From an uncultured bacterium (lineage in GTDB: Bacteria; Patescibacteriota; Minisyncoccia; Phycocordibacterales; UBA9973): 64,000 bases of DNA. The stretch covers positions 9,957 through 73,956 of the forward strand of contig CAITQP010000004.1 of the NCBI GenBank assembly GCA_903894565.1. Reading direction: 5' to 3'. Shown here one piece after another: positions 42,620-56,808 of this stretch (the first letter of the stretch is position 1; every line of letters starts with the position of its first letter). A program made the position numbers and the translations under genes. The notes below the pieces were generated by a model. It made no database searches. It worked only from the letters and a program-made list of their open reading frames with translations, and had not been told where the DNA came from.

Positions 42620-43606
42620 ATGTCAATATTCGCCAAAAGTCGGCAAAAAACATATACTCAATACATGAAAGGCAAACACGCGGACGAGCAGTATCTCGAC
42701 TTACTCCAAAAGCTCATCGATCTGGGTACAGAAAAAACTGACCGCACGGGTACAGGCACAAAATCGTTCCTTGGTCATCAAATGCGTTTCGATCTTGAAG
42801 ACGGCTTCCCTCTTCTCACTACAAAAAAAGTACCGATCAAAGCAATCATTCATGAACTGCTTTGGTTTATGCGTGGCGACACCAATCTCAAATATCTCGT
42901 CGACAATAATGTGCACATTTGGGATGAGTGGCCATACAAGGCATATCTCAAACGAAACAATCTCCCGATTCCAGAAATTAATGGTGAAGAATGGAAGACA
43001 GGCATGAACGCTTTTGTCGAACGCATCAAAACTGACGAACAATTCAGAAATGAATACGGCAACCTCGGACCGATCTATGGATATCAGTGGCGTAGTTGGC
43101 CAACACCAAATGGCGGACACGTTGATCAGCTCGCCAAAGTGATTGAACAAATAAAGACAACACCTGATTCACGACGCATGATCGTGTCGGCGTGGAATGT
43201 CGCCGATATTGATGAGATGGCAAAGGCAGGGCTCCCGCCCTGCCACTGCTTCTTCCAGTTTTATGTCGCCGACGGCAAACTCTCCTGCCAACTCTACCAA
43301 CGTTCGTGCGATACATTTCTTGGCGTGCCATTCAACATCGCGTCGTACTCAATCTTCACGATGATCATCGCACAAATCTGTGGATTGAAGGCTGGCGAAT
43401 TCGTTTGGACTGGCGGTGATGTACATTTGTACAAAAATCACATTGAGCAAGCTCAACTGCAACTCACTCGTCGGAGTGATATTCGTCCCCTCCCGACGAT
43501 GAAGATAAATCCCGCAAAAACAAAAATCGAAGATTTCACGATCGACGATTTTGAACTTGTTGATTACAATCCGCATGATGCCATCAAGGCACCAATCGCA
43601 GTCTAA
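42620..43606 (+). CDS. thyA: thymidylate synthase (ThyA, long form)
   Basis: [16 protein letters not shown], and the catalytic Cys in [12 protein letters not shown]. Confidence 0.9.
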
Positions 43607-43611
43607 ATTAT

Positions 43612-44055
43612 TTGTATAAAATCAAAACAATGAAACAAGGTACAGACTATATTGGAACAGGTGTGGGTGCATTCATCCTCAATGACGAGGGTGAACTTTT
43701 TCTCATGAAGCGTGGTCCAGAATCAAAAAATGAGGTTGGTTACTGGACTGTACCTGGAGGCACCGTCGAATTCGGCGAAACACTGAGTGATGCAGTCGTA
43801 CGTGAAGTACGTGAAGAAATCGGTGTCGATATCGAACTCGATGGACAGCTTCCTGCGATTGATCATATTTTACCCAAAGAAAAGCAGCACTGGGTCACCA
43901 CGATCTTTCCTGCGCGCATTATTTTTGGCACACCAGAAATACTTGAACCATCAAAATGTAGCGATATCGGTTGGTATCCACTCGAAGCTCTTCCTGCTCC
44001 CTTGGCCAGCTCACTACAAAAAACAGTGAACACATTTTTAAATATCGAAGAATAA
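43612..44055 (+). CDS. Nudix hydrolase
   Basis: Nudix box GGTVEFGETLSDAVVREVREEIGV. Confidence 0.8.
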   Translation: MYKIKTMKQGTDYIGTGVGAFILNDEGELFLMKRGPESKNEVGYWTVPGGTVEFGETLSDAVVREVREEIGVDIELDGQLPAIDHILPKEKQHWVTTIFPARIIFGTPEILEPSKCSDIGWYPLEALPAPLASSLQKTVNTFLNIEE

Positions 44056-44075
44056 TATTCAACCGAACATTCATT

Positions 44076-45749
44076 ATGGAAAATAAGATCTGCAAACAAT
44101 GTTCGAATCAATTCTCAATTGAACCAGACGATTTTTCGTTTTACGAAAAAATGCAGGTGCCTCCACCAACACTTTGTCCAATCTGTCGTCAAAAGCGACG
44201 CATGTTCATTCGCAATTTCACCACACTCTACAAGCGAACGTCATCAAAATCTGGCAAACCTATTATTGGTATGTATCACGCCGATCAGCCCTTCCCTGTC
44301 TGGAGCACAGAAGAATGGTACGCAGACGATTGGGACGCAATTGAGTATGGACGTGACTATGATTTTTCTCGACCATTTTTTGATCAATATCATGAGCTCC
44401 TGAATGAAGTGCCTCATGCTTCACTCATGGTTACAAACAGTTCAGATTGCGGATACTGTAATGTTTCGCATCGTAGTTCGCATTGCTATTTCGCCTTCGG
44501 AGTTGTCGACAGTGAATATTGTGACTACGGCGGTCATGCAATTTGGAATTCACGAGAATCATCTGACTGCGCGTATCTCTACAAATCAGAATACTGTTAC
44601 GAATGTATCGACGTCCTTGAATCAAACAATCTCCTCTATTCTGAAGAATGTGAAGCCTGTGCTGAATCAATCGGACTCTTTGATTGTCGCGGGTGCGTAA
44701 ATTGTATTGGCTGTGTTGGTTTGCGAAACAAGTCGTATCATATTTTCAACCAACCAGTTTCCAAAGAAGAATACCAACAATTCAAGATTGATCACCCGCT
44801 CCGAGACAGTGCAACACTCGCATACATACAAGAGGAACAATCGAAATTAAAGCTCACTGTTCCGACTCCACACATGTTTGGCTCTCACAATACAGACGTA
44901 TCTGGAAACCATATTTATAACGCGAAAAATATAGCGTGGAGTTTTGATATCAAGAGCGGAGAAAATGGAAAATTTGGATTCACCGTTCGTTCACTCGTCG
45001 AGAGTTACGACTCAATATTCACAACGAATGTTGAACACTGCTATGAAACAGTTTTCTCTCAATCGTACAAACTCATCGCGTGCCACATGGCACAAGATTG
45101 TACCGAAACTTCATATTCTCAATTTTGTCTAAACTCAAACAACTTGTTTGGCTGTGTTGGTCTGCGCAAAAAAGATTATTGTATTTTGAATAAACAATAT
45201 ACCAAGGAAGAATATGAAGCACTCGTGCCAAAAATAATTGAACACATGCGCTCGACAGGAGAATGGGGTGAATTCTTTCCAATCGAGCTTGCACCTTTTA
45301 CTTACAATGAGTCTACCGTAAATGAATACTACCCCCTCGCTCGCGAAGAGGCATGTGCCGAAGGATACCCATGGAAAGACGACATTCCAGCAATGCGCGG
45401 GCAAGAGAACTTTACGATTGACCAAACTGACACCTACGAGTTTGAATTCTTAAAAGATAAAATCTTTGCTTGTGAATCCTGCGAACGAAATTACCGATTC
45501 ATCGATCATGAACTTTCACTCTATAAACGATTCGGACTCCCTCTTCCACGCAATTGTTTCTTCTGCAGACATGCGAGACGAATGCAAAAACGTCTTCCCC
45601 GCACACTTTACGAACGAACCTGTATGTGTGAGCAACATACTCATGCGCACGGGAATGAGCACTGCCAAACCGCATTCATGACCGCATTCAGCCCTGACCG
45701 ACCAGAGCATGTGTATTGCGAAAAATGTTATCAAGCTGAAATTGTCTAA
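44076..45749 (+). CDS. uncharacterised Cys-rich multi-zinc-ribbon protein (557 aa)
   Basis: N-terminal CKQC...CPIC; an internally duplicated C.GC.NC.GCVGLR.K.Y.I.N....KEEY module; C-terminal CESC...CFFC and CMC...HAH...C...CEKC. ORF-track start 43971 overlaps Nudix; MENKICKQC at 44076 preferred. Confidence 0.55.
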   Translation: MENKICKQCSNQFSIEPDDFSFYEKMQVPPPTLCPICRQKRRMFIRNFTTLYKRTSSKSGKPIIGMYHADQPFPVWSTEEWYADDWDAIEYGRDYDFSRPFFDQYHELLNEVPHASLMVTNSSDCGYCNVSHRSSHCYFAFGVVDSEYCDYGGHAIWNSRESSDCAYLYKSEYCYECIDVLESNNLLYSEECEACAESIGLFDCRGCVNCIGCVGLRNKSYHIFNQPVSKEEYQQFKIDHPLRDSATLAYIQEEQSKLKLTVPTPHMFGSHNTDVSGNHIYNAKNIAWSFDIKSGENGKFGFTVRSLVESYDSIFTTNVEHCYETVFSQSYKLIACHMAQDCTETSYSQFCLNSNNLFGCVGLRKKDYCILNKQYTKEEYEALVPKIIEHMRSTGEWGEFFPIELAPFTYNESTVNEYYPLAREEACAEGYPWKDDIPAMRGQENFTIDQTDTYEFEFLKDKIFACESCERNYRFIDHELSLYKRFGLPLPRNCFFCRHARRMQKRLPRTLYERTCMCEQHTHAHGNEHCQTAFMTAFSPDRPEHVYCEKCYQAEIV

Positions 45750-46538
45750 ATGACGACTCAAGCAAAAAATATATACGGTGTTCGCGTTGTGTACCACACG
45801 GCTGGTGACCCAAAGAATCCACCAATCGTATTTCTTCATGCGTGGGGTGCGAGAAATATCAAACGTGTCATCCGAGAATTCGCGTGTGATTTTTATGTAA
45901 TCGTTCCTGAGCTTCCTGCACTCTTAGGTTCAGACACTCCAACAAATCCTTCTTGGTCATACACTGACTACGTCGAACTTGTCCGTGCGCTCATCAAAGA
46001 ACTCAATGTCACCAAACCAACACTCGTTGGGAATTCGTTCGGCGGAAGTATCGCGACAATTTACGCGACGCTCTATCCGAGCGATATGCGAAATCTCGTA
46101 CTTGTTGACTCGGGAACATCGAGTGAATATCCACGAACACCGTACATGCGAAGGTACCATAGACGCTTTTTCTTTTTGCTCACCTCCCCTACAGTTCCCG
46201 CGTTCATCAAAAAATTCGCAGTCTGGTATTACCTAGGCAAGCCGTTTTCACGTATCACAAACCAAGAACTCAAAAACGAAATTCAATTCGCGCAGAATTT
46301 CAACCGCGAATTTATTGTCGACTATTCCAAAATCATCGTGCCAACACTCGTACTCTCAGGCTCGCGCGATACAGTTATTCATCCGCTAGCGGACGCGCGG
46401 AAAATAGCACACATTATTCCAAATGCGCAGTTTTATACTTACTCCGGAAACGTCACAACGATCTACCAGAAGCCTACAAAAATCATCAATCTCATCAAAC
46501 AACACCTTTTTCAAAAAAGTGCTACACTGTCCGCATGA
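45750..46538 (+). CDS. alpha/beta-fold hydrolase
   Basis: GxSxG LVGNSFGGSIA; its start ATG immediately follows the preceding stop. Confidence 0.7.
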   Translation: MTTQAKNIYGVRVVYHTAGDPKNPPIVFLHAWGARNIKRVIREFACDFYVIVPELPALLGSDTPTNPSWSYTDYVELVRALIKELNVTKPTLVGNSFGGSIATIYATLYPSDMRNLVLVDSGTSSEYPRTPYMRRYHRRFFFLLTSPTVPAFIKKFAVWYYLGKPFSRITNQELKNEIQFAQNFNREFIVDYSKIIVPTLVLSGSRDTVIHPLADARKIAHIIPNAQFYTYSGNVTTIYQKPTKIINLIKQHLFQKSATLSA

Positions 46539-47056
46539 TAGTCTCGATGATCGCAGCAATTGGGCGCAATAACGAGCTTGGCAAGGACAATACGCTCCTG
46601 TGGGAGATGCCTCGCGACATGCAGTATTTCCGTGATACCACACGCGGACACACTGTCATTATGGGCCGTAAAACTTTTGAATCAATCGGATTTCCACTCC
46701 CCAAGCGCCAAAACATCGTAGTCACTCGCGACCACTCCTACCGACCCGCCGGCGTCGATGTCGTGCATTCTCTCGAAGAAGGTCTTCGTCTTGCTGCCCT
46801 CGAACAAGGAAAACATTTCGAAGAAAAACAAGAAGAGACAGAAATCTTCATCATCGGTGGCGGTGAACTCTATCGTCAGGGAATGTCTTTCGCTCACAAA
46901 CTCTATATCACCCGCATCGACGGAGAATTTCAAGATGCAGACACGCACTTCCCCGAGATCGGCCCTGAATGGAAAGAAATCTCTCGTGTTGCACACGAAC
47001 CAGATGCGGAGCATAAATTCCCGCATGTGTTTCTCGTTTACAAAAAAACCGCGTAA
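46535..47056 (+). CDS. folA: dihydrofolate reductase
   Basis: MIVSMIAAIGRNNELGKDNTLLW...VIMGRKTFESIG...IFIIGGGELY. Confidence 0.9.
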   Translation: MIVSMIAAIGRNNELGKDNTLLWEMPRDMQYFRDTTRGHTVIMGRKTFESIGFPLPKRQNIVVTRDHSYRPAGVDVVHSLEEGLRLAALEQGKHFEEKQEETEIFIIGGGELYRQGMSFAHKLYITRIDGEFQDADTHFPEIGPEWKEISRVAHEPDAEHKFPHVFLVYKKTA

Positions 47057-47066
47057 GCGGTTTTTT
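47042..47066. terminator. bidirectional terminator (aaaaaaaccgc-gtaa-gcggtttttt)
   Basis: Lies between convergent folA (+) and the giant surface gene (-). Confidence 0.7.
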
Positions 47067-47088
47067 GTAAGTCCTTTTTTACTACACA

Positions 47089-50000
47089 TTAGTAACTACA
47101 AAACGAAGCATCAGAACCCGTAACAAGCACCCCGCTTGCATTTCGTGCCCATGCTTGTAAGTGCCAAGGCGTATTACACGAGATTGCTCCGATCGGAACA
47201 GTAGCTGTAAATGTGCCTGTTCCTGTCATTGTTGGTCCTGGCACAGTGGCATTGACCGAACCAGATGAATACGCGGTCGTTCTTCCATAATAGAAACCGA
47301 CACTCGCGCTTGAAGCTCCTGCTCCGAGCGAGATAAGATTACCCTTCAACAGAGCAGAAGAGGAACTGAGAAGTGCTCCTGAAACAGTCGACACACTTGG
47401 GTTACATACAACAGTGGTAAAGAGTGCATCCGCACCATTCGCTGAGCCTCCAGTATTGGTGGCTTTTGCGCGATAATGATATGTCGTATTACATGCAAGG
47501 CTCGAAACTGAACCAGTGAATGTTCCAGTTGTACTCAACGTACCAGCGGAGACGGTAGAACCATATGATGTCGTCAATCCATATTCAAAACTGACTGTTG
47601 TACTTGAAGCTCCACCGGTACTTGTGAGATTGCCTCCGATGGTCGCACTGAATTGTCCTACCCCACTCGCGCTTGTTGTCGCGACAGTTGGAGCACATGC
47701 GGAGGTTGTGAATGAAGTATCTCCGCCATTCGCTGAACCTCCGGTATTTGTAGCCTTTGCGCGATAATGATATGTCGTATTACATGCAAGACTTGAGACT
47801 GAGCTACTAAATATTCCCGTCGTACTCATTGTTCCTGCTGATATGGTTGAGCCATATGAAGTTGTTGTTCCGTACTCGAAGCCAACTGTTGTACTTGAAG
47901 CTCCACCGGTGCTTGTGAGATTTCCACCAAGAGTGGCCGTCGCTACACCGACAGCACTCGCCGATGTTGTTGCCACTACTGGCAGACCAATCGGGCACGC
48001 ACTTGTTGTGAACGAGAGTGTCGAACCAGCAGCCGAATGACTACCGTTATTTGTCACGGTCGCATTAAATGTATATGTCGTGTTACAAGTAAGGCCTGTT
48101 AGGTTATACGAATATGGTGATGGTGCTAGTGTGATTAAGCCAGTAAGTATGACCGCCGTTCCAAAACTTCCGGCAAATCCTCGAGTTGCACTTGTCGCAC
48201 CCGAGCCAAGAGAAGTGACTGTTCCATTCAATGTTGCTCCTGTTGCAGTGATCCCCGTCGCGGTATTCGTCGTAACCGATGGAGAACCGACTGGACACGC
48301 AGTCGTCGTAAACGTGAGGTCCGCTCCGTTTGCAGGACCCGAACCATTCAACGCGTCAGCTTGGAAATAATATGTCGTTCCACACGTGAGGCCTGAAATA
48401 TTTTCATGAAATGCACCAACCGAAGTTACAACTCCTGAAGTCGAAAGGGTGTAGGCAGTTGATGTATCGTATTGGAAGAATGTTACGGTAGAAGGATCTC
48501 CTCCATTACTGGTAAGATTGCCGTTCAAGACAACACTTGTGCCAGTAACTGATGCCGCACTCACTGTCGTAACTGACGGTCCGCCGGTACACGCGTCGGT
48601 TGTAAAATTCTGGATAGAACCTACGGCTGAAACGCTCGCGTCGTTAACGACTTGAGCTTGATAATAATACGTAGTGCCACACGATAGCCCGTAAAGAACA
48701 GAGAGGTATGTATGAGGAACGGTCGTAATCCAAAGCGGACCACCAACAGCGACAGTCGTACCGAGTGCCGTAGTTGTGCCGTATTCAAAACTCGGTGTGA
48801 CGCTCAACGCTCCAGTACCCAGCGCCGTAACCGTGGCGTTCATGACACCACTTGTAGCACTAATCGTCGTGGCTGTATTTGTGGTGACCAGAGGTGCACC
48901 CGCTGGACACGGAGCTGTTCGAAATACGATTGAAGCACCGCTCGCTGAAAGCGCGACGTTGTTTGTAATTTTTGCAATATAACTATACGAAGAATCACAA
49001 GTGAGCCCAGACACATTTGCCGTGAAGGTGCCAGTTCCAAACGTTCCAGATACGGTGATCGGAGCACCGAAACTTGTGGTAAATCCGCGACTGGTGATAC
49101 TTGTTGCTCCAAGACCAAGCGACGTTACGTTTGCATTCAGGGTTGCAGTTGTTGTCGTGATTGCAGTTGCAGCAACAGTTGTAACAACAGGTGCTCCAAT
49201 CGGACATGCAGCAGTTACAAAAGATATTGTGCCGCCTGAACTTGAGACACTCGCGTTGTTTGTCGCCGTAGCAATAAAATTGTAACCCGTATTACACGTG
49301 AGGCCAGTGATCATCGAGGAGAACGTTCCTGTTCCAAAAGTACCAGTCATCGTGATGGGAACTCCAAAGCTACCAGTAAATCCGCGACTCGTTATGCTTG
49401 TCGCTCCAGTACCCATGCTTGTTACATTTCCGTTAATGGTAGCACTTGTCGTTGTAATCGAAGTTGCGCTTGTTGTTGTAACAACAGGTGCTCCGATAGG
49501 ACAAGCACTTGTGGTAAATGAAAGTGCTGATCCGGTACCAGTCAATCCGGCATCATTTACGGCACTCGCCGTAAATGTATATGTTGTATGACACGTCAAA
49601 CCAACAAGATCTTGAGAAAACGCTGATGGTAGAGTTCTAATCACTGTCATTGTCGTGCCCGAGCCTCCAGAACTTGAAGTCAATGTACGGCTCGTGATTG
49701 ATGTTGCGCTTGTACCAAATGCTGTGACGTGTCCGTTGATTGTTGCGGTGGTTGTTGTTATTGCAGTTGCAGGATCGGTGATTACTGTTGGAGCGGTGGC
49801 TGGGCAGGCTGGTGTGGTGAATGAGACTGGGGTGAGATCAGTCGTTGCTCCCCCACCTGCATTTGTTGCTGTCGCAAAATATGAATATGTGGTGCCACAA
49901 GCGACTGTTGTTGTACCAGAAAAATTGGTAAGCGATGTGAGTGTTGGAGTTGATGAAGCGACAGTTGCACCGCCGAAATTAAATGAGACCGAAGATGAAG

Positions 50001-50112
50001 TGAGGGCCCACTTGCTCCTATTCCGAATGAGTCGAGATGTCCTTTGAGTGTTGCTGTCGTACCGGAAACGGTTGCCGTCACTGTGTGTACTGTTGGCGGC
50101 ACAAGTGAACAC
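47089..50112 (-). CDS. C-terminal ~1000-aa part of giant surface protein: ~11 tandem Fn3-like ~95-aa repeats (same gene as 49782..52028, separated by a frameshift near 50004-50009)
   Basis: Repeated unit ACP.G.P.VTT..AT.IT.T.AT.NG.VTS.G.GATS...GF....G......G....F...++GLTC.T.Y.+.A.A.N..G...G....FTT. Confidence 0.6.
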   Translation of the reverse strand: MFTCAANSTHSDGNRFRYDSNTQRTSRLIRNRSKWALTSSSVSFNFGGATVASSTPTLTSLTNFSGTTTVACGTTYSYFATATNAGGGATTDLTPVSFTTPACPATAPTVITDPATAITTTTATINGHVTAFGTSATSITSRTLTSSSGGSGTTMTVIRTLPSAFSQDLVGLTCHTTYTFTASAVNDAGLTGTGSALSFTTSACPIGAPVVTTTSATSITTTSATINGNVTSMGTGATSITSRGFTGSFGVPITMTGTFGTGTFSSMITGLTCNTGYNFIATATNNASVSSSGGTISFVTAACPIGAPVVTTVAATAITTTTATLNANVTSLGLGATSITSRGFTTSFGAPITVSGTFGTGTFTANVSGLTCDSSYSYIAKITNNVALSASGASIVFRTAPCPAGAPLVTTNTATTISATSGVMNATVTALGTGALSVTPSFEYGTTTALGTTVAVGGPLWITTVPHTYLSVLYGLSCGTTYYYQAQVVNDASVSAVGSIQNFTTDACTGGPSVTTVSAASVTGTSVVLNGNLTSNGGDPSTVTFFQYDTSTAYTLSTSGVVTSVGAFHENISGLTCGTTYYFQADALNGSGPANGADLTFTTTACPVGSPSVTTNTATGITATGATLNGTVTSLGSGATSATRGFAGSFGTAVILTGLITLAPSPYSYNLTGLTCNTTYTFNATVTNNGSHSAAGSTLSFTTSACPIGLPVVATTSASAVGVATATLGGNLTSTGGASSTTVGFEYGTTTSYGSTISAGTMSTTGIFSSSVSSLACNTTYHYRAKATNTGGSANGGDTSFTTSACAPTVATTSASGVGQFSATIGGNLTSTGGASSTTVSFEYGLTTSYGSTVSAGTLSTTGTFTGSVSSLACNTTYHYRAKATNTGGSANGADALFTTVVCNPSVSTVSGALLSSSSALLKGNLISLGAGASSASVGFYYGRTTAYSSGSVNATVPGPTMTGTGTFTATVPIGAISCNTPWHLQAWARNASGVLVTGSDASFCSY

Positions 50113-51050
50113 GCGAGTGTTGTGAACGACATATCTGAACCAGTGCCCATTCCTGTTGTGTTCTGCGCGTACGCACGGAAGTGATATGAGGTCGCGCAGG
50201 AAAGACCAGTGATCGTAAGCGTATACGGACCCGTACTAAATGTACCCACTCCAGAATCAATTGCTGGATCAAGACCGATCGTCGTAAGTGTTGGTGTTGT
50301 GTTATAAGAAAAACCACGTGCAGAGGCACTCGATGCTCCGCCAAGCGACACAATCGTGCCGTTGAAAGTAGCACTCGTACTTCCTGGAGTCACGCTATCC
50401 GTCGTGACGAGTGGTGGCGTCAAACAAATAGACGTTGTGAATGTCATGTCCGCTCCGTTTGTAGTGCCGATGGAATTCGTCGCCCAGGCTCGATAATGAT
50501 AGAGCGTATTACATGTGAGGCTAGCTATGGTGGTATTCACAAATAAAGTTGGAACAGTGTATGGAGCGGACATTGTTACCGTAGATCCATATGCAGTTGT
50601 CGTTCCGTAATTGAATCCAGCAGTCGCGCTTGGTGCTCCACCGAGGTCGGTGAGATTCCCGGTGAGAGTAACTGTGCTCGTGGTAATACTAGTTGCGCTA
50701 ACGGTGAGAACTGTTGGAGAAACAGGTGGGCACGATGACGTCGTAAACGACATGTCTACACCGTGTGCAGACCCCATTGAATTTATAGCTGTTGCCTCGA
50801 AGTGATATCCAGTCGCACAAGTGAGTCCCGTAAGATTTGCAGTAAACGTGCCTGGAGATATTTGTATTCCGGCACTAGCGGTACTTCCGTAGAGACTAGA
50901 AGTACCCCATGAAAATCCAACACTATTAGAAACACCAGCACCCCCCGTATCAGTTATATTTCCAGTAATAGTTGCTGTTGTTTGAGTTATTGCACTGCTA
51001 CTCACCGTAAGCACGGTAGGTGGGACAACCGTATTTTCATAAATAAACTC
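47200..51050 (-). repeat. coding tandem repeat array (~285-nt period, ~15 copies) encoding Fn3-like domains; some adjacent copies are nearly identical
   Basis: Periodic protein repeats; plus-strand antisense ORFs recur with VVTTGAPIGHA-like motifs. Confidence 0.7.
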
Positions 51051-52028
51051 TCCATAATTAGCGGCCGCGTACTTTGTGCCAGTCGCATCTGATGCTGTTT
51101 TATACCAATTACCTATGCCAGCTCCTGTCTCAGCGGTCCAGTGCACCCCACGATCATGAGAAACATATATGTATGTTCCTGAGCTTCCTGCAATAAGAGT
51201 ATTCCCTGACGCATCAGAGGCAACGTCTACCCAATTATGCATCCCCGAAGAACCGCTGTAATCAGTCCAAGTTGCACCATAATTTGTCGACATCCAAATA
51301 TATCCGTATTGATCGGTAGCAGCCAAATACTGCCCTGTTGCGTCAGAGGCGATTCCCGCCCAACTACCACTCGCATGAATACCCGATGATGCAACAGTCC
51401 AGTGAGCACCGTAATCATTCGAGACAGAAATTCCACCTCCACTCCATGCACTCGCAGCTAAATATCTTCCGGTAGAATCGGAAACAATTTTTCTCCAACT
51501 ATTACCACCCGAGGATCCGATTCCATGTGCATCAGGAAAATCGGTCCAGGTTAGCCCCGCATCAGATGATGTCCAGATATATCCACGTTGATCTGTGGCG
51601 GCAAGATGTGATCCGTCAGAAGAAGAAGAAACTCCTCCCCAGTAAATAACACCGGAGGAGCAATTGTGAAGAGACCATGTTACGCCTGCGTCTGTTGAAA
51701 TAGAAATACAACCGGTTGATGTTTGAGAAACAGCAACGAGCTTACTTCCTGTTGAATCGGAGGCAACAGCATACCAGTCTGAAAAACCAGAAGAACCATA
51801 CCCGCGAGCATTCGGAAAATCAGTCCATGTCAGACCGGTATCTGCTGACACCCACACAAATCCTGAACCAACAGCCGCAAGATGGGTCCCATCAGAAGAA
51901 GAAACTATTGAGTTCCAAGTCCCAGCCCCTGAACTCCCTCCATGATTCGTCCACGCTGCAAACGTATGTGGAGTAGCGACGAAAAAAAAGATAGCCGCGA
52001 GAAATCCTATCAAAAGAAATTTTTTCAT
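49782..52028 (-). CDS. N-terminal part of giant surface protein: signal peptide, BNR/Asp-box beta-propeller (~6 SxDxGxTW motifs), then ≥4 Fn3-like repeats; the last ~74 aa of this ORF are out of frame
   Basis: Signal peptide MKKFLLIGFLAAIFFFVATPHTFA; Asp-boxes (SADTGLTWTD, STDAGVTWS, SSDAGLTWTD, SNDYGAHWT, STNYGATWTD, SHDRGVHWT). Confidence 0.65.
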   Translation of the reverse strand: MKKFLLIGFLAAIFFFVATPHTFAAWTNHGGSSGAGTWNSIVSSSDGTHLAAVGSGFVWVSADTGLTWTDFPNARGYGSSGFSDWYAVASDSTGSKLVAVSQTSTGCISISTDAGVTWSLHNCSSGVIYWGGVSSSSDGSHLAATDQRGYIWTSSDAGLTWTDFPDAHGIGSSGGNSWRKIVSDSTGRYLAASAWSGGGISVSNDYGAHWTVASSGIHASGSWAGIASDATGQYLAATDQYGYIWMSTNYGATWTDYSGSSGMHNWVDVASDASGNTLIAGSSGTYIYVSHDRGVHWTAETGAGIGNWYKTASDATGTKYAAANYGEFIYENTVVPPTVLTVSSSAITQTTATITGNITDTGGAGVSNSVGFSWGTSSLYGSTASAGIQISPGTFTANLTGLTCATGYHFEATAINSMGSAHGVDMSFTTSSCPPVSPTVLTVSATSITTSTVTLTGNLTDLGGAPSATAGFNYGTTTAYGSTVTMSAPYTVPTLFVNTTIASLTCNTLYHYRAWATNSIGTTNGADMTFTTSICLTPPLVTTDSVTPGSTSATFNGTIVSLGGASSASARGFSYNTTPTLTTIGLDPAIDSGVGTFSTGPYTLTITGLSCATSYHFRAYAQNTTGMGTGSDMSFTTLACSLVPPTVHTVTATVSGTTATLKGHLDSFGIGASGPSLHLRSHLISAVQLSLHQLQHSHRLPIFLVQQQSLVAPHIHILRQQQMQVGEQRLISPQSHSPHQPAQPPLQQ

Positions 52029-52034
52029 ATACTT

Positions 52035-52532
52035 TTATTTACGCAAGGCAGCGCAGGCTAAGGTGGTAAATTTTTGGGCCGCACCGAAGGTGCGGCCATT
52101 TGGATTTGTCGCAACAGTTCGGTAATAGTATGTCGTGTGGCACGTAAGCCCTGTCGCAGTAGCCGTTACCATCAAACCATCTGGAGACACTGTCCCCTTC
52201 ACTGTTTGTCCGTACGATGGGGTTGTGCCGTACATGAAGCTTGGTGTTGCAGCATTCGATTGATCGGTCGCAGAAATTTTGCCAGTAAACACAGCAGTCG
52301 TTCCTGTGATTTGTGATGGAGTAAGTGTCGTAGAGGCAGGAACACTTGGGGGTGTCTCCTTTACGACTGGTGCTTGAACCGTATTGATGACCTTTCCAGA
52401 GTTATCGAGACTATTCAAATGGAGGTACTTATACGTAAAGAAACCTGCAAGAACCAAAACAACCACAATAATAATAGCCTTGAGAGAATCGTTCTCCGGA
52501 TTGTTCCAAAAATTCATATTAAAATTGTACAA
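52035..52532 (-). CDS. small membrane-anchored protein with a single Fn3-like domain homologous to the repeats of the adjacent giant gene
   Basis: N-terminal TM (AIIIVVVLVLAGFFTY), then ...GLTCHTTYYYRTVATNPNGRTFGAAQKFTTLAC. Confidence 0.5.
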   Translation of the reverse strand: MYNFNMNFWNNPENDSLKAIIIVVVLVLAGFFTYKYLHLNSLDNSGKVINTVQAPVVKETPPSVPASTTLTPSQITGTTAVFTGKISATDQSNAATPSFMYGTTPSYGQTVKGTVSPDGLMVTATATGLTCHTTYYYRTVATNPNGRTFGAAQKFTTLACAALRK

Positions 52533-52559
52533 TGTTTGAAGCGAAATGCAATGCCTCTC

Positions 52560-52892
52560 CTACGGGTCAATGTCTGTTTTGACTCGAATAAAAACATCCT
52601 TACCGTCAGGTGTTTTTTCTTTTATATATTTGCGCTTCTTATTGATTTCAATTTTGCGCGTAAGCTCACTCTCGAGATCGTAGCCAAGCTGTTCGCACAT
52701 ACCGAGCAAAAAAATCGCGACATCGGCAATCTCTTCGGCTACTCCTGGCTGACTCTTACTGAATTTTGAAAATGCTTCTGAGAGCTCTTCATGCGCGCGA
52801 CAAAATTCAAATGCAATATCGGTCGTATTAAAACCTTTTTCGATTTTATTCTGCATCACCTCTTTCTGTAATTGTTTGAGATCTACTGACAT
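52560..52892 (-). CDS. MazG-like nucleotide pyrophosphohydrolase
   Basis: EExxE motifs (EELSEA, EEIADV) in a ~110-aa all-alpha protein. Confidence 0.65.
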   Translation of the reverse strand: MSVDLKQLQKEVMQNKIEKGFNTTDIAFEFCRAHEELSEAFSKFSKSQPGVAEEIADVAIFLLGMCEQLGYDLESELTRKIEINKKRKYIKEKTPDGKDVFIRVKTDIDP

Positions 52893-52898
52893 ATATAT

Positions 52899-53399
52899 TT
52901 ACTGATCTGTATAATTCTCGACTTCGTTACTGAGTATCACCAATTCCACGCAAGCGTCTTTAAAAATTTCTTTGGTACGCCCCGCTGCATGATAGTCCTT
53001 GGCACACACAACACGTGTAATACCCGCATTGATAATCACCTTTGCACAGTTGTAACACGGAACCATTTTGACATAAATTGTCGAGCCATCAATCGCAACA
53101 CCGAATCGTGCCGCGTTCGCAATAGCGTTCGTCTCTGAGTGTGTCGTGCGAATACAATGTCGCGACGTACTACCATCTTCATTCGTGACGGTGTGCATCT
53201 CATGCCCTACTTCATCACAGTGGGCGAGACCTCGAGGTGAACCAGCATAGCCTGTCGCAAGAATTCGTTTGTCCTTCGTAATCACACAACCAACATGACC
53301 GCGGTCACAGGTACCACGCGAGCCAACAAGGTCCGCCATTTGGAGGAAATATTCATCCCATGAAGGTCGAGCCTGTTTAGTTGGAATATTGTCTGACAT
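52899..53399 (-). CDS. dCMP deaminase (ComEB-like)
   Basis: HSETNAI (H[AS]E) and PCYNCAKVI (PCxxC) zinc-binding motifs. Confidence 0.8.
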   Translation of the reverse strand: MSDNIPTKQARPSWDEYFLQMADLVGSRGTCDRGHVGCVITKDKRILATGYAGSPRGLAHCDEVGHEMHTVTNEDGSTSRHCIRTTHSETNAIANAARFGVAIDGSTIYVKMVPCYNCAKVIINAGITRVVCAKDYHAAGRTKEIFKDACVELVILSNEVENYTDQ

Positions 53400-53420
53400 A
53401 CGATGAGTATACTCGCCGGA

Positions 53421-54125
53421 CTACTTTTTACCAATCTTACGGAACATTGGACCATACACGTCCTCTTCGATCGGAATGAGCAATTCTTTTTTGTTCACAC
53501 GATCAGTAAATTCGATTTCTGCGCCAGTAATAATCGCGAGCGGACGGCACTCTTTGCCCTCTCCCATCGGGAGCACTGCGGTCGTAGCAAGTGCGTCAGC
53601 AACGTCAGTACGTGTCATTGTGAGTTTGCGTCCAAAAATATCTGGTGTTCCGCGATAGTCACGAATTCCTTTGAATCCTGCGTAGCCGAGAGCAACACCG
53701 ACAACACCTGCACGAAGTGGGAGCAAGCGTGAATCAGTAATGAGTACCCCGAGCTCCTTCACACCGTAATGCTTCATAAGTTTCTTACGCATCTCACTTG
53801 CAGCTTTGTATGAATCTTTTGGAAGTAGCACAATTTTGCCGTCAGCGTTTGATTCATCCACACCAGCATTCGCCACGAGCATTCCATCTTTGATGGTGAG
53901 CCAGACATATTCAGTCTCGAGGGCGAATTCTGATTCCGAACGAATGAGCGCTTCCTTTTCTTTTTCTGTGCCGAGCTTCGCTGTTCGCCCCTCAGACAAT
54001 GCAACAATTTTTGATGTAATGACAATAACAGAACGCTCGGGAGCTCGTTTAATAAAACGAGTAACAAAGGCAAAAAGATCTTCATTTTCAGCAAATACTT
54101 TTGTGGTGATTGGTTTAATATTCAT
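53421..54125 (-). CDS. CofE-like (F420-0:gamma-glutamyl ligase family) protein
   Basis: LVANAGVDESNA motif, ~235 aa. Confidence 0.55.
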   Translation of the reverse strand: MNIKPITTKVFAENEDLFAFVTRFIKRAPERSVIVITSKIVALSEGRTAKLGTEKEKEALIRSESEFALETEYVWLTIKDGMLVANAGVDESNADGKIVLLPKDSYKAASEMRKKLMKHYGVKELGVLITDSRLLPLRAGVVGVALGYAGFKGIRDYRGTPDIFGRKLTMTRTDVADALATTAVLPMGEGKECRPLAIITGAEIEFTDRVNKKELLIPIEEDVYGPMFRKIGKK

Positions 54126-54129
54126 ACTA

Positions 54130-54660
54130 TTATTTATTACGAACGTATCGAAGCACTATCGTACCATGAGGATTCAATTTTTTCACGGAAACAAGTTTAA
54201 ACTGTGTCCGAAGTTTCCCTTCGGCGAACAATTGTTTCCCTCCTCCAAGAATGACCGGTTCGATGGTAAGGTGCAATTCATCAAACAATCCGAGATCAAG
54301 CATAGTCCGATATGCTTCCGATCCTCCAACAATAGCGACCATTTTATGCTCTGCGCAAAGTGTGCCAATGTCCGTGTGTCGTGGATTGAGAAACGTTACT
54401 GATCCTGTGACTTTTGGTTTTATGACTTTGCTCGTTAGGACGTATGCGACACGTTTGTCGATGTGATCTTGAGCTACACGATAGGTCCGAGAACCGGCGA
54501 CGACCGCGCTCGCTTTCGCGAGCGCGGTCTGAAAGTACTTCCAATCTTCTCCACTCGTCCAATCAGGCATGCGCGAAGTATCGGTGGAAATATACCCATC
54601 AATACTCACAGCGGCATACGCAACGTATCGAGTTCTAGGCTGTCGTTTTTGATGTGTCAT
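54130..54660 (-). CDS. RibD C-terminal domain / DHFR-like reductase
   Basis: YAAVSIDGYIS...DELHLTIEPVILGGGKQLF pattern of the RibD_C family; start placed at MTHQKRQ. Confidence 0.6.
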   Translation of the reverse strand: MTHQKRQPRTRYVAYAAVSIDGYISTDTSRMPDWTSGEDWKYFQTALAKASAVVAGSRTYRVAQDHIDKRVAYVLTSKVIKPKVTGSVTFLNPRHTDIGTLCAEHKMVAIVGGSEAYRTMLDLGLFDELHLTIEPVILGGGKQLFAEGKLRTQFKLVSVKKLNPHGTIVLRYVRNK

Positions 54661-55291
54661 TGTCACGAAGAAGTTTGATTCCGAGATACGAAAGTGGTGT
54701 ATATGCAACGCCCATTAATACTTTGTAAATCCACCACGGAATAATCATCAATATGAGTTTGTGGTTTGAATAAATTCCTGCAAATGCGACAACAGTAAAA
54801 ATAACCGTATCAAACAATTGTGACCAAATATTTGAAAGATTTGATCGCAGCCAAAAATACTTGCTCCCTTGTCGCGCCTTGAAGAAAAAGAATGCGAGCA
54901 CGTCTTGGTATTCTCCGATTGCGAATGCGAGTACTGAGGCGATTGAGATACGAATTGAGACACTATAGAGCGTATTGTACGCATCGTGCGCCCACATACT
55001 CGCGACAGACCACGGCATAAGCATGGAAATAATATTGAACACCATGAATGAGAGCACAGCAAAAAACCCCGCAAAGACGAATTGTCGCGCGAGTTTTTTA
55101 CCATATACTTCTCCGATGATATCGGTCATCAAGAACACAAATGGAAAATAAAAAACAGACACTGATAGGTGCGTCCCAAAAAGAAACGGCATGGTTTTGA
55201 TACCAAGCGTATTTGAGGCAATGAGCGCTGTGATATAGAGCACGAGACACACGAATACTTTCTTCTGATCACGAGGAGCGAGTTGTTCCAT
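54635..55291 (-). CDS. YhhQ/VUT-family (queuosine-precursor-type) transporter
   Basis: Six TM helices with DUF165-type motifs (FPFVFLMTDIIGEVYGKKLARQ). Confidence 0.65.
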   Translation of the reverse strand: MEQLAPRDQKKVFVCLVLYITALIASNTLGIKTMPFLFGTHLSVSVFYFPFVFLMTDIIGEVYGKKLARQFVFAGFFAVLSFMVFNIISMLMPWSVASMWAHDAYNTLYSVSIRISIASVLAFAIGEYQDVLAFFFFKARQGSKYFWLRSNLSNIWSQLFDTVIFTVVAFAGIYSNHKLILMIIPWWIYKVLMGVAYTPLSYLGIKLLRDNDTSKTTA

Positions 55292-55315
55292 TATTATTGT
55301 TTTATATTATAAAAA

Positions 55316-55343
55316 TAAAAACCACCCTTTCGGGCGGTCTTTA
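55316..55343 (-). terminator. terminator hairpin 3' of rplK (accaccc-TTTC-gggcggt)
   Basis: Hairpin with a GNRA loop and flanking A/T runs. Confidence 0.55.
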
Positions 55344-55347
55344 TCGT

Positions 55348-55773
55348 TTAGCCTTTGATTTCGATACCAGCCTGGCGAGCACTTCCAGCAACGATTTTCA
55401 TCGCGCCTTCAATGTCCTTCGCATTGAGGTCCGGCATTTTCTTTTCGGCAATTTCTTTGAGCTGAGCTTTTGTGATACTTCCAGCTTTTGAAGTATTTGG
55501 TTTACCCGAACCCTTCTCGATGCCTGCCGCCTTAAAGAGGAGGCCTGCGACTGGAGGAGTCTTGATGAGGAAATCGTAACTACGATCCTCGTACACAGTA
55601 ATCACGACACCAACGGTGTCACCCATCATCTTTGAAGTTGCTGCATTGAACTTGGTAACGAAGTCACCGATGTTCACGCCAGCCTGACCGAGTGCAGGTC
55701 CAAGTGGTGGCGCTGGTGTTGCTCGTCCCGCTGGGATCTGAACTTTGACTTTCTTTGTAATTTTTTTCGCCAT
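55348..55773 (-). CDS. rplK: 50S ribosomal protein L11
   Basis: [22 protein letters not shown]. Confidence 0.95.
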
Positions 55774-55895
55774 AAATAGATTAGTGAGCTTATAACTAGA
55801 GAGGTTTTAGTAGAAGCCAAAAACACCGACTAGTTCCGATACATTACCAGAAAAGGGTGGTTTTGGCAATTGCCAACAGAACGAGCACAATTTCT

Positions 55896-56444
55896 TTACA
55901 TCTTCTTGATTTGGAGGAAGTCGAGCTCAACTGGAGTTTCGCGACCGAACATTGAAACGAGAACGCGGATTTTGCCACGGTCTTGGTCGACATCGTTGAC
56001 CTTACCTTCAAGGTCTTTGAATGGGCCATCAACGATTGAAACGAGATCTCCGACTGCAACGTCAATCGCATGCTTCGCGTTGTCGTTTGTTCCCATTGTC
56101 TTAAAGAGTGCGTCAACTTCTTTTTGGTTGAGAGGCACTGGGTTTACTCCGGCACCAACGAATCCTGTAACACGAGGAGTGTTGCGAACAACGTACCATG
56201 AATCGTCCGTCACAATCATATCAACAAGGACATATCCAGGGTAGACTTTTTCTTCTACTTCGACACGCTTCCCTGCCTTGATTTTGATCTTCTTCTCCAT
56301 TGGTACGATCACATTAAAAATGCGGTCTTGCATACCGAGAGATTCGATACGCTGTTTTAAGTTACGCGCAACTGCGTTTTCGTAGCCCGCGTATGTGTGA
56401 ATCGCGTACCAACTGCGTTCTGGGGTGATTTCTTGTTTTGCCAT
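55896..56444 (-). CDS. nusG: transcription antiterminator NusG
   Basis: N-terminal WYAIHTYAGYENAV (NGN), KOW domain (GDLVSIVDGPFKDLEGKV). Confidence 0.9.
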   Translation of the reverse strand: MAKQEITPERSWYAIHTYAGYENAVARNLKQRIESLGMQDRIFNVIVPMEKKIKIKAGKRVEVEEKVYPGYVLVDMIVTDDSWYVVRNTPRVTGFVGAGVNPVPLNQKEVDALFKTMGTNDNAKHAIDVAVGDLVSIVDGPFKDLEGKVNDVDQDRGKIRVLVSMFGRETPVELDFLQIKKM

Positions 56445-56492
56445 AGTTTTGAAAAAATAAGACTAGTAATGTGCCCGGAAACGAAAACGCTA

Positions 56493-56711: not shown

Positions 56712-56769
56712 TTAAAAAAGCCCTGCGGGGCCTTCTATTGATAGAGTACCCTATTTTAAAGATGAAGTC

Positions 56770-56808
56770 AAAAGGGCGGGGGTGGCTTCGCCACCCCCGC
56801 CCTTTTCT
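56770..56808 (-). terminator. rho-independent terminator (aagggcgggggtgg-cttc-gccacccccgccctt)
   Basis: Perfect 14-bp GC-rich hairpin with T-rich flanks. Confidence 0.7.

What the first reader, a model, noticed from the sequence alone, without database searches (positions are those of the whole stretch)
47089..52532. Locus encoding a ~1650-aa surface protein with an Asp-box beta-propeller and ~15 tandem Fn3-like repeats, plus an adjacent single-domain paralog
ORFs 49782..52028 and 47089..50112 are two pieces of one gene. The piece has a signal peptide, then six S-x-D-x-G-x-T-W Asp-box/BNR motifs. After that come ~15 consecutive ~95-aa repeats with a conserved Cys pair and an Fn3-like Y.F.A.A.N..G core (…GLTC.TTY.Y.A.A.N..G…FTT.ACP…). 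Several neighbouring repeats are near-identical (for example the two …NLTSTGGASSTTV.FEYG.TTSYGST.SAGT.STTG.F..SVSSLACNTTYHYRAKATNTGGSANG… copies). This indicates recent tandem duplication and a recombination-prone, rapidly evolving surface structure. Immediately upstream in the same orientation, 52035..52532 encodes a TM-anchored protein with one copy of the same domain. A BNR propeller fused to a long Fn3 stalk suggests a cell-surface carbohydrate-binding or host/partner-attachment fibre. Such proteins are typical of episymbiotic small-genome bacteria.
Basis: partly seen in the sequence, partly recalled or inferred. Interest (0 to 1): 0.6.

Follow-up and report, generated by a model that had tools for sequence, protein, structure and literature searches.

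The report
Frameshifted giant surface fibre and its anchor
A small-genome (CPR/Patescibacteria) bacterium encodes an ordinary kind of long, secreted surface fibre, a seven-bladed propeller head on a stalk of 13 fibronectin-type-III domains. In this assembly the gene is broken by a one-base deletion, and it is always preceded by a small membrane-anchored gene that probably tethers the fibre to the cell.

Summary
The two minus-strand ORFs (49782..52028 and 47089..50112) are one gene, split by a 1-nt deletion at GGGCCC (50004..50009). Adding one base gives a 1646-aa protein.

It has a signal peptide and a 7-bladed propeller with six Asp-boxes (AF2 pLDDT >90). The best fold matches are Ycf48 and GH74 xyloglucanase. 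Then come 13 Fn3 domains, not about 15 (AF2 pLDDT 96; the top 50 Foldseek hits are Fn3-containing proteins). Each domain carries a co-occurring Cys pair.

The "near-identical, recent duplication" claim is overstated. The best repeat pair is 80% identical in protein and 71-77% in DNA, with 37 synonymous differences. The longest exact DNA repeat is 35 nt, so an assembly collapse is unlikely.

The Fn3 subtype is very common: 65,049 cluster representatives match it.

Two things are new here. An intact 1972-aa ortholog has 16 repeats. And the anchor-less Cys-type giant genes of this family are directly preceded by a gene for an envelope anchor (TM helix or PG_binding_1). In all but one locus that protein ends in a single Fn3 domain. 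The giants paired with such a partner end in a conserved C-terminal cap, CN.PWH…FC. This suggests a fibrillar adhesin anchored in trans.

The ligand and any role in episymbiosis are untested. Verdict: an ordinary kind of protein, with a modest new variant.

The parts
52035..52532 (-). Small partner gene. The ORF runs from a TTG at 52532, but gene callers and the orthologs start it at the ATG at 52517 (160 aa). It has a conserved N-terminal motif MNFWNNPENDSLK, one hydrophobic TM helix, a Pro/Ser/Thr linker, and a single C-terminal Fn3 domain with the Cys pair.
   Evidence: Orthologs at 85, 60 and 57% identity. Where the downstream DNA is held, a giant Fn3-array gene always follows.
50007..52028 (-). 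5' part of the giant gene, in frame 1 (residues 1-674). The ORF as it stands runs on out of frame to a stop at 49782.
   Evidence: The exact 748-aa product is on record in NCBI, ENA and Logan.
51957..52028 (-). Predicted Sec signal peptide (residues 1-24, MKKFLLIGFLAAIFFFVATPHTFA).
   Evidence: Read from the sequence. Homologs have the same N-terminus. No signal-peptide predictor was available.
51024..51956 (-). Seven-bladed Asp-box beta-propeller (residues 25-335). It contains six S-x-[DN]-x-G-x-x-W motifs.
   Evidence: pLDDT mostly >90; Ycf48, GH74, 7-blade WD40. (sortilin, E 3e-5). (462 homologs carrying PF15902, PF15899 or PF14870).
50004..50009 (-). Frameshift site GGGCCC. One base is missing relative to the intact reading frame (for example GGGG>GGG).
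   Evidence: Homologs are contiguous at this point. The DNA is identical in an ENA and a Logan assembly.
47089..50006 (-). 3' part of the giant gene, in frame 2 (the rest of R4, then R5-R13, then the stop at 47089..47091).
47092..51023 (-). Stalk of 13 tandem Fn3 domains (R1-R13, 97-106 aa each). Each has a Cys pair. The stalk is 22% Thr and only 3.6% charged residues.
47404..47994 (-). R11-R12, the most similar repeat pair (80% protein identity, 71-77% DNA identity). This pair was the AF2 target.
47092..47403 (-). R13, a divergent C-terminal cap domain ending ...SCNTPWHLQAWARNASGVLVTGSDASFCSY. The same ending is conserved in the other giants that have an upstream anchor-plus-Fn3 partner.

Best explanation
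The locus is a two-gene cassette for an extracellular fibre in a Patescibacteria (Paceibacteria-like) bacterium.

**Gene 1** (52035..52517) encodes a bitopic membrane protein. It has a short conserved cytoplasmic N-terminus, one TM helix, a flexible linker and one disulfide-clamped Fn3 domain outside the cell.

**Gene 2** starts 6 nt later and encodes a Sec-secreted 1646-aa protein. An N-terminal seven-bladed Asp-box propeller is the ligand-binding head. A stalk of 13 disulfide-clamped Fn3 domains follows, roughly 45-50 nm long if extended at ~3.5-4 nm per Fn3 domain (established knowledge). The last domain is a conserved C-terminal cap.

The giant protein has no anchor of its own. I infer that its C-terminal cap docks non-covalently on the Fn3 domain of the small membrane protein. 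The stalk would then project the propeller away from the cell, as in a fibrillar adhesin whose anchor is supplied in trans.

In this assembly a 1-nt deletion at 50004..50009 truncates the protein after the propeller and about 3.4 Fn3 domains. Either the consensus carries a single-base error, or this population has a disabled allele that cannot be tethered.

**Shown:** gene structure, frameshift, folds, repeat count, Cys-pair co-occurrence, the conserved gene pairing, lineage.
**Inferred:** membrane topology, disulfides, docking of the cap on the anchor, adhesive role of the propeller.
For: - **One gene, and where it breaks:**
- **Propeller:** AF2 pLDDT >90 over residues 25-335 with seven 4-stranded blades. 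Foldseek top hits are Ycf48, GH74 and 7-bladed WD40. There are 462 homologs with Sortilin-Vps10, BNR_6 or PSII_BNR Pfam hits.
- **Fn3 stalk:** AF2 pLDDT 96.4. All 50 listed Foldseek hits are Fn3-containing proteins. A profile of the repeats hits titin, DCC and neogenin Fn3 sequences. Pfam fn3 and PhoD_N are above their cutoffs.
- **Cys pair:** across 22 related proteins, 103 domains have both Cys, 80 have neither and 18 have one, by a crude regex. The Cys count is even, with 26 in the stalk (composition; sequence) and 2 in the propeller, so no free Cys is left over.
- **No cis anchor:** no LPXTG and no C-terminal hydrophobic segment.
- **Conserved pairing:** seven Cys-type giants were looked up starting from the giant gene itself (L013, L095, L096, L097, L099, L100, L101). 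In all seven the gene 5-33 nt upstream encodes a partner of this kind. The anchor is a TM helix in L013, L095, L100 and L101, and a signal peptide plus PG_binding_1 in L097 and L099. In L096 the N-terminus is cut off by the contig end. In six of the seven the partner ends in a single Fn3 domain with the Cys pair.
- **Pairing survives rearrangement:** in L005 the same pair sits among entirely different neighbours.
- **C-terminal cap:** giants whose partner ends in an Fn3 domain end in ...CN.PWH...FC(x). P0139 (L099) has a looser variant of this ending. P0189, whose partner lacks an Fn3 domain, lacks the cap.
- **Cis-anchored relatives:** the Cys-free relatives P0147, P0153 and P0167 end in a C-terminal TM helix followed by Arg residues, and P0210 ends in a PG-binding-like domain. 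The one Cys-free giant whose locus was examined (P0156, L102) has no partner gene.
- **Head diverges faster than stalk:** between the window and L005 the propeller is 41% identical, against 54-88% for positionally matching Fn3 domains. This fits a specificity-determining head.
- **Lineage:**
Against: - No experiment or complex prediction links the small protein to the giant one.
- The pairing sample is small (about 10 loci), comes from related CPR lineages, and half of it was found through the small protein itself.
- Charged residues flank the TM helix on both sides, so the N-in/C-out topology is not clear from the sequence.
- In L097 the propeller sits on the anchor protein, and in L014, L097, L099 and L100 the giant has no propeller. 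The propeller is therefore an optional module, not always a distal head.
- No Dsb-type oxidase gene lies in the 64-kb window.
- The frameshift means the fibre may not be made at all in this organism.
- Nothing identifies the ligand.
Confidence: 0.6

Rival explanations
1. Pseudogene. The 1-nt deletion is real and the gene is decaying in this genome. At most a truncated secreted propeller with about 3 Fn3 domains is made, and there is no surface fibre. This is compatible with the best explanation for the intact family.
For: The frameshift is present with 100% identical DNA in an ENA megahit assembly and a Logan assembly. NCBI carries the 748-aa product. GGGCCC is not a canonical slippery heptamer, and G3/C3 runs are too short for classical phase variation (inference).
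Against: The 970 codons downstream remain completely open and are 54-88% identical, domain by domain, to the intact ortholog. Any inactivation must therefore be very recent. The two assemblies may derive from the same reads, so they are not independent. A consensus indel error cannot be excluded.
Confidence: 0.35
2. The propeller is an enzyme (a sialidase- or GH74-like glycoside hydrolase). The Fn3 array would then be a spacer or substrate-binding linker, as in many secreted carbohydrate-active enzymes.
For: Asp-box propellers occur in GH33 sialidases and GH74 xyloglucanases. GH74 structures are among the top Foldseek hits, and a weak GH33 sequence hit exists (4fj6, E 0.18).
Against: There are seven blades, not the six of sialidases, and no [FY]R[IV]P motif. 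GH74 needs two tandem propellers forming a cleft, and here there is one. The best match is the non-enzymatic Ycf48, and no glycoside hydrolase Pfam or NCBIfam family is hit.
Confidence: 0.1
3. The giant protein is a released or self-associating matrix or S-layer-like protein. The small TM-Fn3 protein would be an independent surface protein that merely shares an operon.
For: There is no cis anchor. The stalk is nearly uncharged and rich in Thr and Ser, which could favour self-association or glycosylation. The MNFWNNPEN anchor module also occurs on unrelated ectodomains.
Against: The tight gene pairing persists through rearranged neighbourhoods. The C-terminal cap co-occurs with an Fn3 domain on the partner. 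Relatives that lack a partner have cis anchors.
Confidence: 0.2
4. Assembly artefact. The repeat array is collapsed, expanded or chimeric, and the frameshift marks a mis-join.
For: The Logan contig ends inside R11/R12 at window 47761. The closest relative's contig ends inside the propeller. So assemblers do struggle at this locus.
Against: The longest exact repeat in the locus is 35 nt, and repeats are at most 77% identical in DNA. Two assemblers give identical sequence over 9 kb. The domain order is collinear with an independently assembled ortholog. The frameshift lies in unique sequence within R4.
Confidence: 0.05

Closest known systems
Fibrillar adhesins (Monzon/Bateman class; PMC9210967)
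   Same: A large secreted protein with an N-terminal globular non-stalk domain, a long rod of tandem Ig-like/Fn3 stalk domains, a Thr-rich composition, and a repeat number that varies between lineages.
   Different: It has no cis anchor (no LPXTG, TM helix or PG-binding domain). The anchor appears to be supplied by the adjacent gene. The head is an Asp-box propeller, which I did not find discussed as an adhesive domain in that paper (no occurrence of 'propeller', two of 'BNR'). Adhesion is untested.
Periscope proteins (SasG, Rib, Sgo_0707; PMC8201768)
   Same: The architecture is head plus a variable-length stalk. One ortholog (L005) has a 97%-identical repeat pair, and there are 16 repeats there against 13 here.
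   Different: Periscope stalks consist of highly identical DNA repeats that vary between strains. Here adjacent domains are mostly below 50% identical, the best pair is 71-77% identical in DNA, and the longest exact repeat is 35 nt.
Ycf48/HCF136 (PSII assembly factor; PDB 5oj3, 5ojp)
   Same: A seven-bladed Asp-box propeller, the top Foldseek match (E 4e-13, TM 0.70-0.75 on the target). JGI names homologs 'photosystem II stability/assembly factor-like'.
   Different: Only 14-18% identity. This protein is fused to a 1300-aa Fn3 stalk and secreted, in a Patescibacteria lineage, a group not known to be photosynthetic (general knowledge). The resemblance is of fold, not of function.
Sortilin/Vps10 and GH74/GH33 Asp-box (BNR) propellers
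   Same: They share the S-x-D-x-G-x-T-W Asp-box in a beta-hairpin of each blade. Sequence hits to sortilin reach E 3e-5, and GH74 is among the top fold hits.
   Different: Sortilin has 10 blades, GH74 has two propellers, and GH33 has 6 blades plus a catalytic RIP/Arg triad. None of these features is present here.
Fn3-domain surface proteins of cultivated CPR epibionts (e.g. S. epibionticum SEML1_0890, Tn-seq essential; PMC10633639) and the >1,500-aa adhesion-domain proteins of Absconditicoccaceae (PMC13059738)
   Same: Large envelope-associated CPR proteins with Fn3 domains, proposed to mediate host contact.
   Different: No sequence comparison with those proteins was made here. Those lineages (Saccharibacteria, Absconditabacteria) differ from this Paceibacteria-like genome. 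No host is known for this organism.

Membership tests
Fibronectin type III domain (Pfam PF00041, E-set clan) | ~90-100-aa seven-stranded beta-sandwich with the Fn3 fold | tested here: met
   The AF2 model of R11-R12 has pLDDT 96.4, with 7-8 strands per domain. All 50 listed Foldseek PDB hits are Fn3-containing proteins, at E 1e-8 to 2e-7 and probability 1.00.
Fibronectin type III domain (Pfam PF00041, E-set clan) | Sequence match to the family HMM above the curated cutoff | tested here: met
   fn3 scores 34.2 bits against a cutoff of 25, and PhoD_N 34.2 against 30, for the whole protein. Only one partial stretch passes on its own. A profile of the repeats hits titin at E 5.5e-9 and DCC and neogenin Fn3 at E 3e-4.
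Fibronectin type III domain (Pfam PF00041, E-set clan) | Conserved F-strand tyrosine-corner motif (L.P.T.Y.[FV].V.A.N..G) | tested here: met
   The motif L.C.T.Y.[YF]..A.N..G is present in all 13 repeats, with Cys in place of the usual Pro.
Asp-box (BNR) beta-propeller (Pfam sialidase clan) | Repeated S-x-D-x-G-x-T-W Asp-box motifs | tested here: met
   Six motifs, at residues 61, 111, 154, 203, 247 and 290.
Asp-box (BNR) beta-propeller (Pfam sialidase clan) | BNR-type Pfam HMMs above the gathering score | tested here: not met
   BNR_6 scores 22.6 and BNR 14.8 bits against a cutoff of 27. These models are only 12-14 residues long. Homologs carry precomputed PF15902, PF15899, PF02012 and PF14870 hits.
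Asp-box (BNR) beta-propeller (Pfam sialidase clan) | Beta-propeller fold | tested here: met
   AF2 pLDDT is mostly above 90 for residues 25-335, with seven four-stranded blades. Foldseek hits Ycf48, GH74 and WD40 at E ~1e-12.
GH33 sialidase | Six-bladed propeller with a catalytic [FY]RIP motif and Arg triad | tested here: not met
   Seven blades, no [FY]R[IV]P motif, and only a marginal sequence hit to a GH33 candidate (E 0.18).
GH74 xyloglucanase | Two tandem seven-bladed propellers forming the catalytic cleft | tested here: not met
   There is a single propeller of 311 residues. Foldseek covers only about half of the GH74 targets (TM on target 0.34-0.36).
Ycf48/HCF136 | Stand-alone seven-bladed propeller acting in photosystem II assembly, in a photosynthetic organism | tested here: not met
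   The fold matches best. However, the protein is fused to a 13-domain Fn3 stalk, is only 14-18% identical, and no photosystem genes were seen in the parts of the window and related loci that were annotated. The lineage is Patescibacteria.
Fibrillar adhesin | Large size and a rod of tandem stalk domains | tested here: met
   1646 aa with 13 tandem Fn3 domains.
Fibrillar adhesin | Cell-surface anchor (sortase motif, TM helix, PG- or S-layer-binding domain) in the same protein | tested here: not met
   No LPXTG-like motif in the last 60 residues and no C-terminal hydrophobic segment. The candidate anchor is encoded by the adjacent gene.
Fibrillar adhesin | Adhesive (ligand-binding) domain with demonstrated binding | not testable with these tools
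   The propeller head is only a candidate. No ligand can be inferred from the sequence.
Periscope protein | Tandem stalk repeats highly identical at the DNA level | tested here: not met
   The maximum is 77% (TRF) or 71% (global alignment) DNA identity for R11/R12. The longest exact repeat is 35 nt, and adjacent-domain protein identity is mostly 32-51%.
Periscope protein | Repeat-number variation between closely related strains | tested here: inconclusive
   Repeat numbers range from 7 to 16 among related proteins, and 13 against 16 for the ortholog, but these lineages are only ~40-60% identical. No strain-level data were available.

The most novel reading that the evidence does not exclude
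CPR/Patescibacteria of this clade may use a previously undescribed two-component way of mounting surface fibres. A small bitopic protein carries a conserved N-terminal membrane-anchor module (MNFWNNPEN..[LI]K, a TM helix ending ...AGFF, then YKY.H). A PG_binding_1 domain replaces it in some lineages. This protein presents a single disulfide-clamped Fn3 'socket'. The conserved C-terminal CN.PWH...FC cap of an otherwise anchor-less giant Fn3 fibre would dock on that socket. The same anchor module is reused on several other ectodomains, so it could be a lineage-specific sorting or anchoring signal, comparable in role to LPXTG/sortase in Firmicutes.
Probability: 0.3. Interest if true: 0.6.

Novelty: new variant of a known kind. 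Interest (0 to 1): 0.35.

Why it matters
CPR bacteria are thought to live attached to other cells, but how their surface proteins are mounted and what they bind is largely unknown. This locus gives a well-defined example: a head, a stalk, and a conserved candidate anchor gene.

If the in-trans anchoring is real, it would explain how the many anchor-less giant Fn3 proteins of CPR genomes stay on the cell. It would also give annotators a rule for pairing such genes.

On the practical side, public annotation of this assembly lists the gene as two proteins (the 748-aa product is on record in NCBI, ENA and Logan; a gene caller lists an 853-aa second ORF). They should be merged or flagged as a frameshifted gene.

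The fibre itself is otherwise an ordinary member of a very large family, with 65,049 cluster representatives carrying the domain.

Tried and rejected
1. **A third conserved partner.** A Cys-rich ~557-aa protein with treble-clef-like zinc ribbons (window 44076..45749) lies next to the cassette in the window, L005 and L013, which looked like a functional link. A metagenome scan found more than 530 homologs. Only 1 of the 80 fetched loci had an Fn3-subtype ORF in up to 10-kb flanks. The association is rejected as lineage-specific synteny.

2. **Programmed -1 frameshifting.** The site (AGT GGG CCC TCA) is not an X XXY YYZ heptamer, and the orthologs are contiguous there. Not supported.

3. **Intermolecular disulfide between anchor and fibre.** Both proteins have even Cys counts, all in intradomain pairs. 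Not favoured.

4. **A Dsb oxidase near the locus.** L013 has a DsbB gene and a thioredoxin-like gene about 3 kb away. tblastn of both against the window found nothing.

5. **Promoter and terminator scan of 46900..53000.** No more sites than in shuffled sequence, and none at sensible positions.

6. **tRNA and Rfam scans of the whole window.** Nothing found.

8. **Saccharibacteria assignment.** It was suggested by the record titles of loci that share the anchor module. NusG points instead to Paceibacterota/Nomurabacteria-like relatives. I therefore claim only 'Patescibacteria'.

Full report
**1. What is in the sequence**

On the minus strand, the ORF listing gives a 748-aa ORF (49782..52028) and a 1007-aa ORF (47089..50112). 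They overlap by 331 nt in different frames. The first ORF's translation is repeat-like up to ...GHLDSFGIGASG and then degenerates. The second becomes repeat-like from ...ALTSSSVSFNFGG. The two meet at AGT GGG CCC TCA, window 50004..50009.

Adding one base there gives an uninterrupted 1646-aa protein. A homolog reads ...GHLDSFGSGMSGVATSAHVEFNFGG... through the same point, and an intact 1972-aa ortholog exists. So the window carries a 1-nt deletion relative to the ancestral frame.

The same DNA, 100% identical, is found in an ENA megahit assembly and in a Logan assembly. The 748-aa product is also on record in NCBI. These assemblies may share reads, so I cannot tell a real truncated allele from a consensus error. 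The site is not a canonical slippery heptamer.

**2. Anatomy of the giant protein**

*Signal peptide.* Residues 1-24 look like a Sec signal peptide. This is read from the sequence only.

*Propeller.* Residues 25-335 contain seven W..[IV]AS..DG..L.A units. Six of them are followed by an Asp-box, S-x-[DN]-x-G-x-x-W.
- AlphaFold2, run with a 92-sequence alignment, predicts seven four-stranded blades, mostly at pLDDT >90.
- Foldseek against the PDB ranks Ycf48 first (E 4e-13). GH74 xyloglucanases and generic seven-bladed WD40 propellers follow.
- phmmer against PDB sequences finds sortilin at E 3e-5.
- The Pfam BNR models stay below their cutoffs. They are only 12-14 residues long.
- The 462 sequence homologs carry Sortilin-Vps10, BNR_6 or PSII_BNR hits, and JGI calls many of them 'photosystem II stability/assembly factor-like'.
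- There is no sialidase [FY]RIP motif, the blade number is wrong for GH33, and there is only one propeller where GH74 has two.

So the head is an Asp-box propeller with no sign of being an enzyme.

*Stalk.* Residues 336-1646 are 13 repeats of 97-106 aa, not about 15.
- An AF2 model of R11-R12 has pLDDT 96.4.
- All 50 listed Foldseek hits are Fn3-containing proteins: neogenin, NCAM, titin, DCC, LAR.
- Pfam fn3 (34.2 bits against 25) and PhoD_N (34.2 against 30) pass their cutoffs.
- Every repeat has a Cys in the E-F loop (L.C.T.Y) and a second Cys 26-31 residues later, just after strand G.
- Across 22 related proteins, 103 domains have both Cys, 80 have neither and 18 have one, by a crude regex. 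In the Fn3 topology both positions lie at the same pole of the domain (my inference). This points to an intradomain disulfide clamp.
- The stalk is 22% Thr and only 3.6% charged residues.
- There is no LPXTG motif and no C-terminal hydrophobic anchor.

**3. How similar are the repeats?**

Pairwise protein identity is 23-67%, except for R11/R12 at 80%. At the DNA level R11/R12 are 77% identical by TRF or 71% by global alignment. They differ at 37 synonymous and 19 non-synonymous codons out of 97. The longest exact repeat in the whole locus is 35 nt.

The duplication is therefore old and has been under purifying selection. The array is not especially prone to recombination, and collapse or expansion during assembly is unlikely.

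Compared with the 1972-aa ortholog, the domains are collinear at 54-88% identity, with whole-repeat insertions and deletions (13 against 16). That ortholog has a 97%-identical R2/R4 pair, a genuinely recent duplication there. The propeller is only 41% identical between the two, so it diverges faster than the stalk.

**4. The domain family is very common**

A profile of the window's 13 domains (12 stalk repeats plus the small protein's domain) matches 65,049 of 1.84 billion cluster representatives at E <= 1e-3, and 5,621 at E <= 1e-30. Many are giant proteins with 10-41 matched stretches. Several have the same signal peptide, propeller and Fn3-array layout with 7-15 repeats.

**5. The small upstream gene is a conserved partner**

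The gene at 52035..52517 encodes MNFWNNPENDSLK, a hydrophobic helix, a P/S/T-rich linker and one Fn3 domain with the Cys pair. It ends 6 nt before the giant gene's start. It has orthologs at 85, 60 and 57% identity. Wherever the downstream DNA is held, a giant Fn3 gene follows. In L005 this happens among entirely different neighbours.

I then looked up seven Cys-type giants starting from the giant gene itself.

| Locus | Giant | Upstream partner: anchor | Partner ends in a single Fn3 domain? |
|---|---|---|---|
| L013 | P0151 | TM helix | yes |
| L095 | P0144 | TM helix | yes |
| L096 | P0170 | N-terminus cut by contig end | yes |
| L097 | P0128 | signal peptide + propeller + Fn3 + PG_binding_1 | yes |
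| L099 | P0139 | signal peptide + PG_binding_1 | yes |
| L100 | P0143 | TM helix | yes |
| L101 | P0189 | TM helix (MNFWNNPEN type) | no (small Cys-rich domain) |

In all seven, the gene 5-33 nt upstream is a partner of this kind.

The C-terminal ends of the giants fit this pattern.
- Giants whose partner ends in an Fn3 domain end in ...SCN.PWH..AWA.N..G..V.G.D..FC(x). P0139 has a looser variant.
- P0189, whose partner lacks an Fn3 domain, lacks this cap.
- The Cys-free relatives P0147, P0153 and P0167 end in a C-terminal TM helix followed by Arg residues.
- P0210 ends in a PG-binding-like domain.
- The one Cys-free giant whose locus I examined (P0156, L102) has no partner gene.

I read this as an anchor supplied in trans: the C-terminal cap would be cell-proximal and the N-terminal propeller distal. 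[quoted passage not shown] It remains an inference from about ten loci.

**6. Context and lineage**

The flanking genes are housekeeping: folA, an alpha/beta hydrolase, a NUDIX gene and thyA on one side; a MazG-like gene, dCMP deaminase, an F420-ligase-like gene, a RibD_C gene, a Vut_1 transporter, rplK, nusG and secE on the other. Nothing there suggests a functional link.

The closest named relatives of NusG are Candidatus Paceibacterota and Nomurabacteria MAGs, at 76-81% identity. The closest genome is an unclassified 'MAG: bacterium ELA106'. The lineage is therefore Patescibacteria/CPR. Episymbiosis of this particular organism is not shown.

**7. Comparison with known systems**

The protein works like a fibrillar adhesin: head, stalk and anchor. 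It fails the cis-anchor criterion, and its head is not an established adhesive domain.

It is not a Periscope protein in the strict sense, because those have highly identical DNA repeats (PMC8201768).

Fn3-containing envelope proteins are already implicated in host interaction in cultivated CPR epibionts (SEML1_0890 in PMC10633639; large adhesion-domain proteins in PMC13059738).

**8. Verdict**

The kind of protein is common. The modest novelty lies in the conserved anchor-partner gene and the matching C-terminal cap. Interest 0.35.

Noticed in passing
window 52479..52517 (-); also L009:10001, L010:10001, L012:6596 and 7705, L100:1579 and 5364, L101:38: A conserved ~45-aa N-terminal module: M(N)FWNNPEN..[LI]K, a TM helix ending ...AGFF, then YKY.H.N.L..G.V. 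It heads at least five different ectodomain types: a single Fn3 domain, a propeller plus 2 Fn3 domains, a ~230-aa beta-rich domain, a small Cys-rich domain, and a Thr/Gly-rich tail. A regex found 11 distinct ORFs with it in the 1.25 Mb of loci fetched. It looks like a lineage-specific membrane-anchor or sorting signal.
   Followed up: partly
window 44076..45749 (+): A 557-aa Cys-rich protein of unknown function, with treble-clef-like CxxC zinc ribbons at both ends (zf_Tbcl 21 bits, below the cutoff) and an invariant C-terminus ...VYCE.CYQAEI. It is very widespread (more than 530 metagenome loci). It neighbours the cassette in three related genomes but not in general (1 of 80 loci).
   Followed up: yes
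window 58367..61042 (-): A second large predicted surface protein (891 aa) with Big_9 and a weak Cadherin_5 hit, about 6 kb upstream of the cassette. It is conserved in the closest relative (895 aa in L003).
   Followed up: no
L012:10338..11030: In a MAG labelled Saccharibacteria, a 230-aa protein inside a type IV pilus cluster (pilB, pilT, pilC, a pilin gene and a prepilin peptidase downstream) carries a C-terminal Cys-free copy of the same FEYG-type Fn3 domain. In L005 and L100 the cassette lies a few kb from pilM- or pilO-like genes.
   Followed up: no
L096:4771..5298 and L097:8244..8861: In two loci the giant gene is followed by a conserved ~175-205-aa protein. It has an N-terminal TM helix, a His-rich linker and a conserved domain (...VVYVPDAHA..RQAIG.AG.G.IGNY.FC.FSSLGTGRYLPGPGANP...). 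No equivalent follows the giant gene in the window.
   Followed up: no
L013:13000..14026 (-): A DsbB gene and a thioredoxin-like CxxC gene lie about 3 kb downstream of the cassette in one related genome. This is relevant to forming the 2 x 13 stalk disulfides. No homolog was found in the 64-kb window.
   Followed up: partly
window 1..64000: There are no tRNA genes and no Rfam family at gathering score anywhere in the 64 kb, including no r-protein leader upstream of rplK.
   Followed up: yes
window 47500..50050 (+): A series of 60-130-aa ORFs lies antisense to the stalk (for example 49655..50047 and 48080..48370), rich in Val, Pro and Ala. They mirror the Thr/Ser/Gly/Ala codons of the repeats and are most likely not genes.
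   Followed up: no
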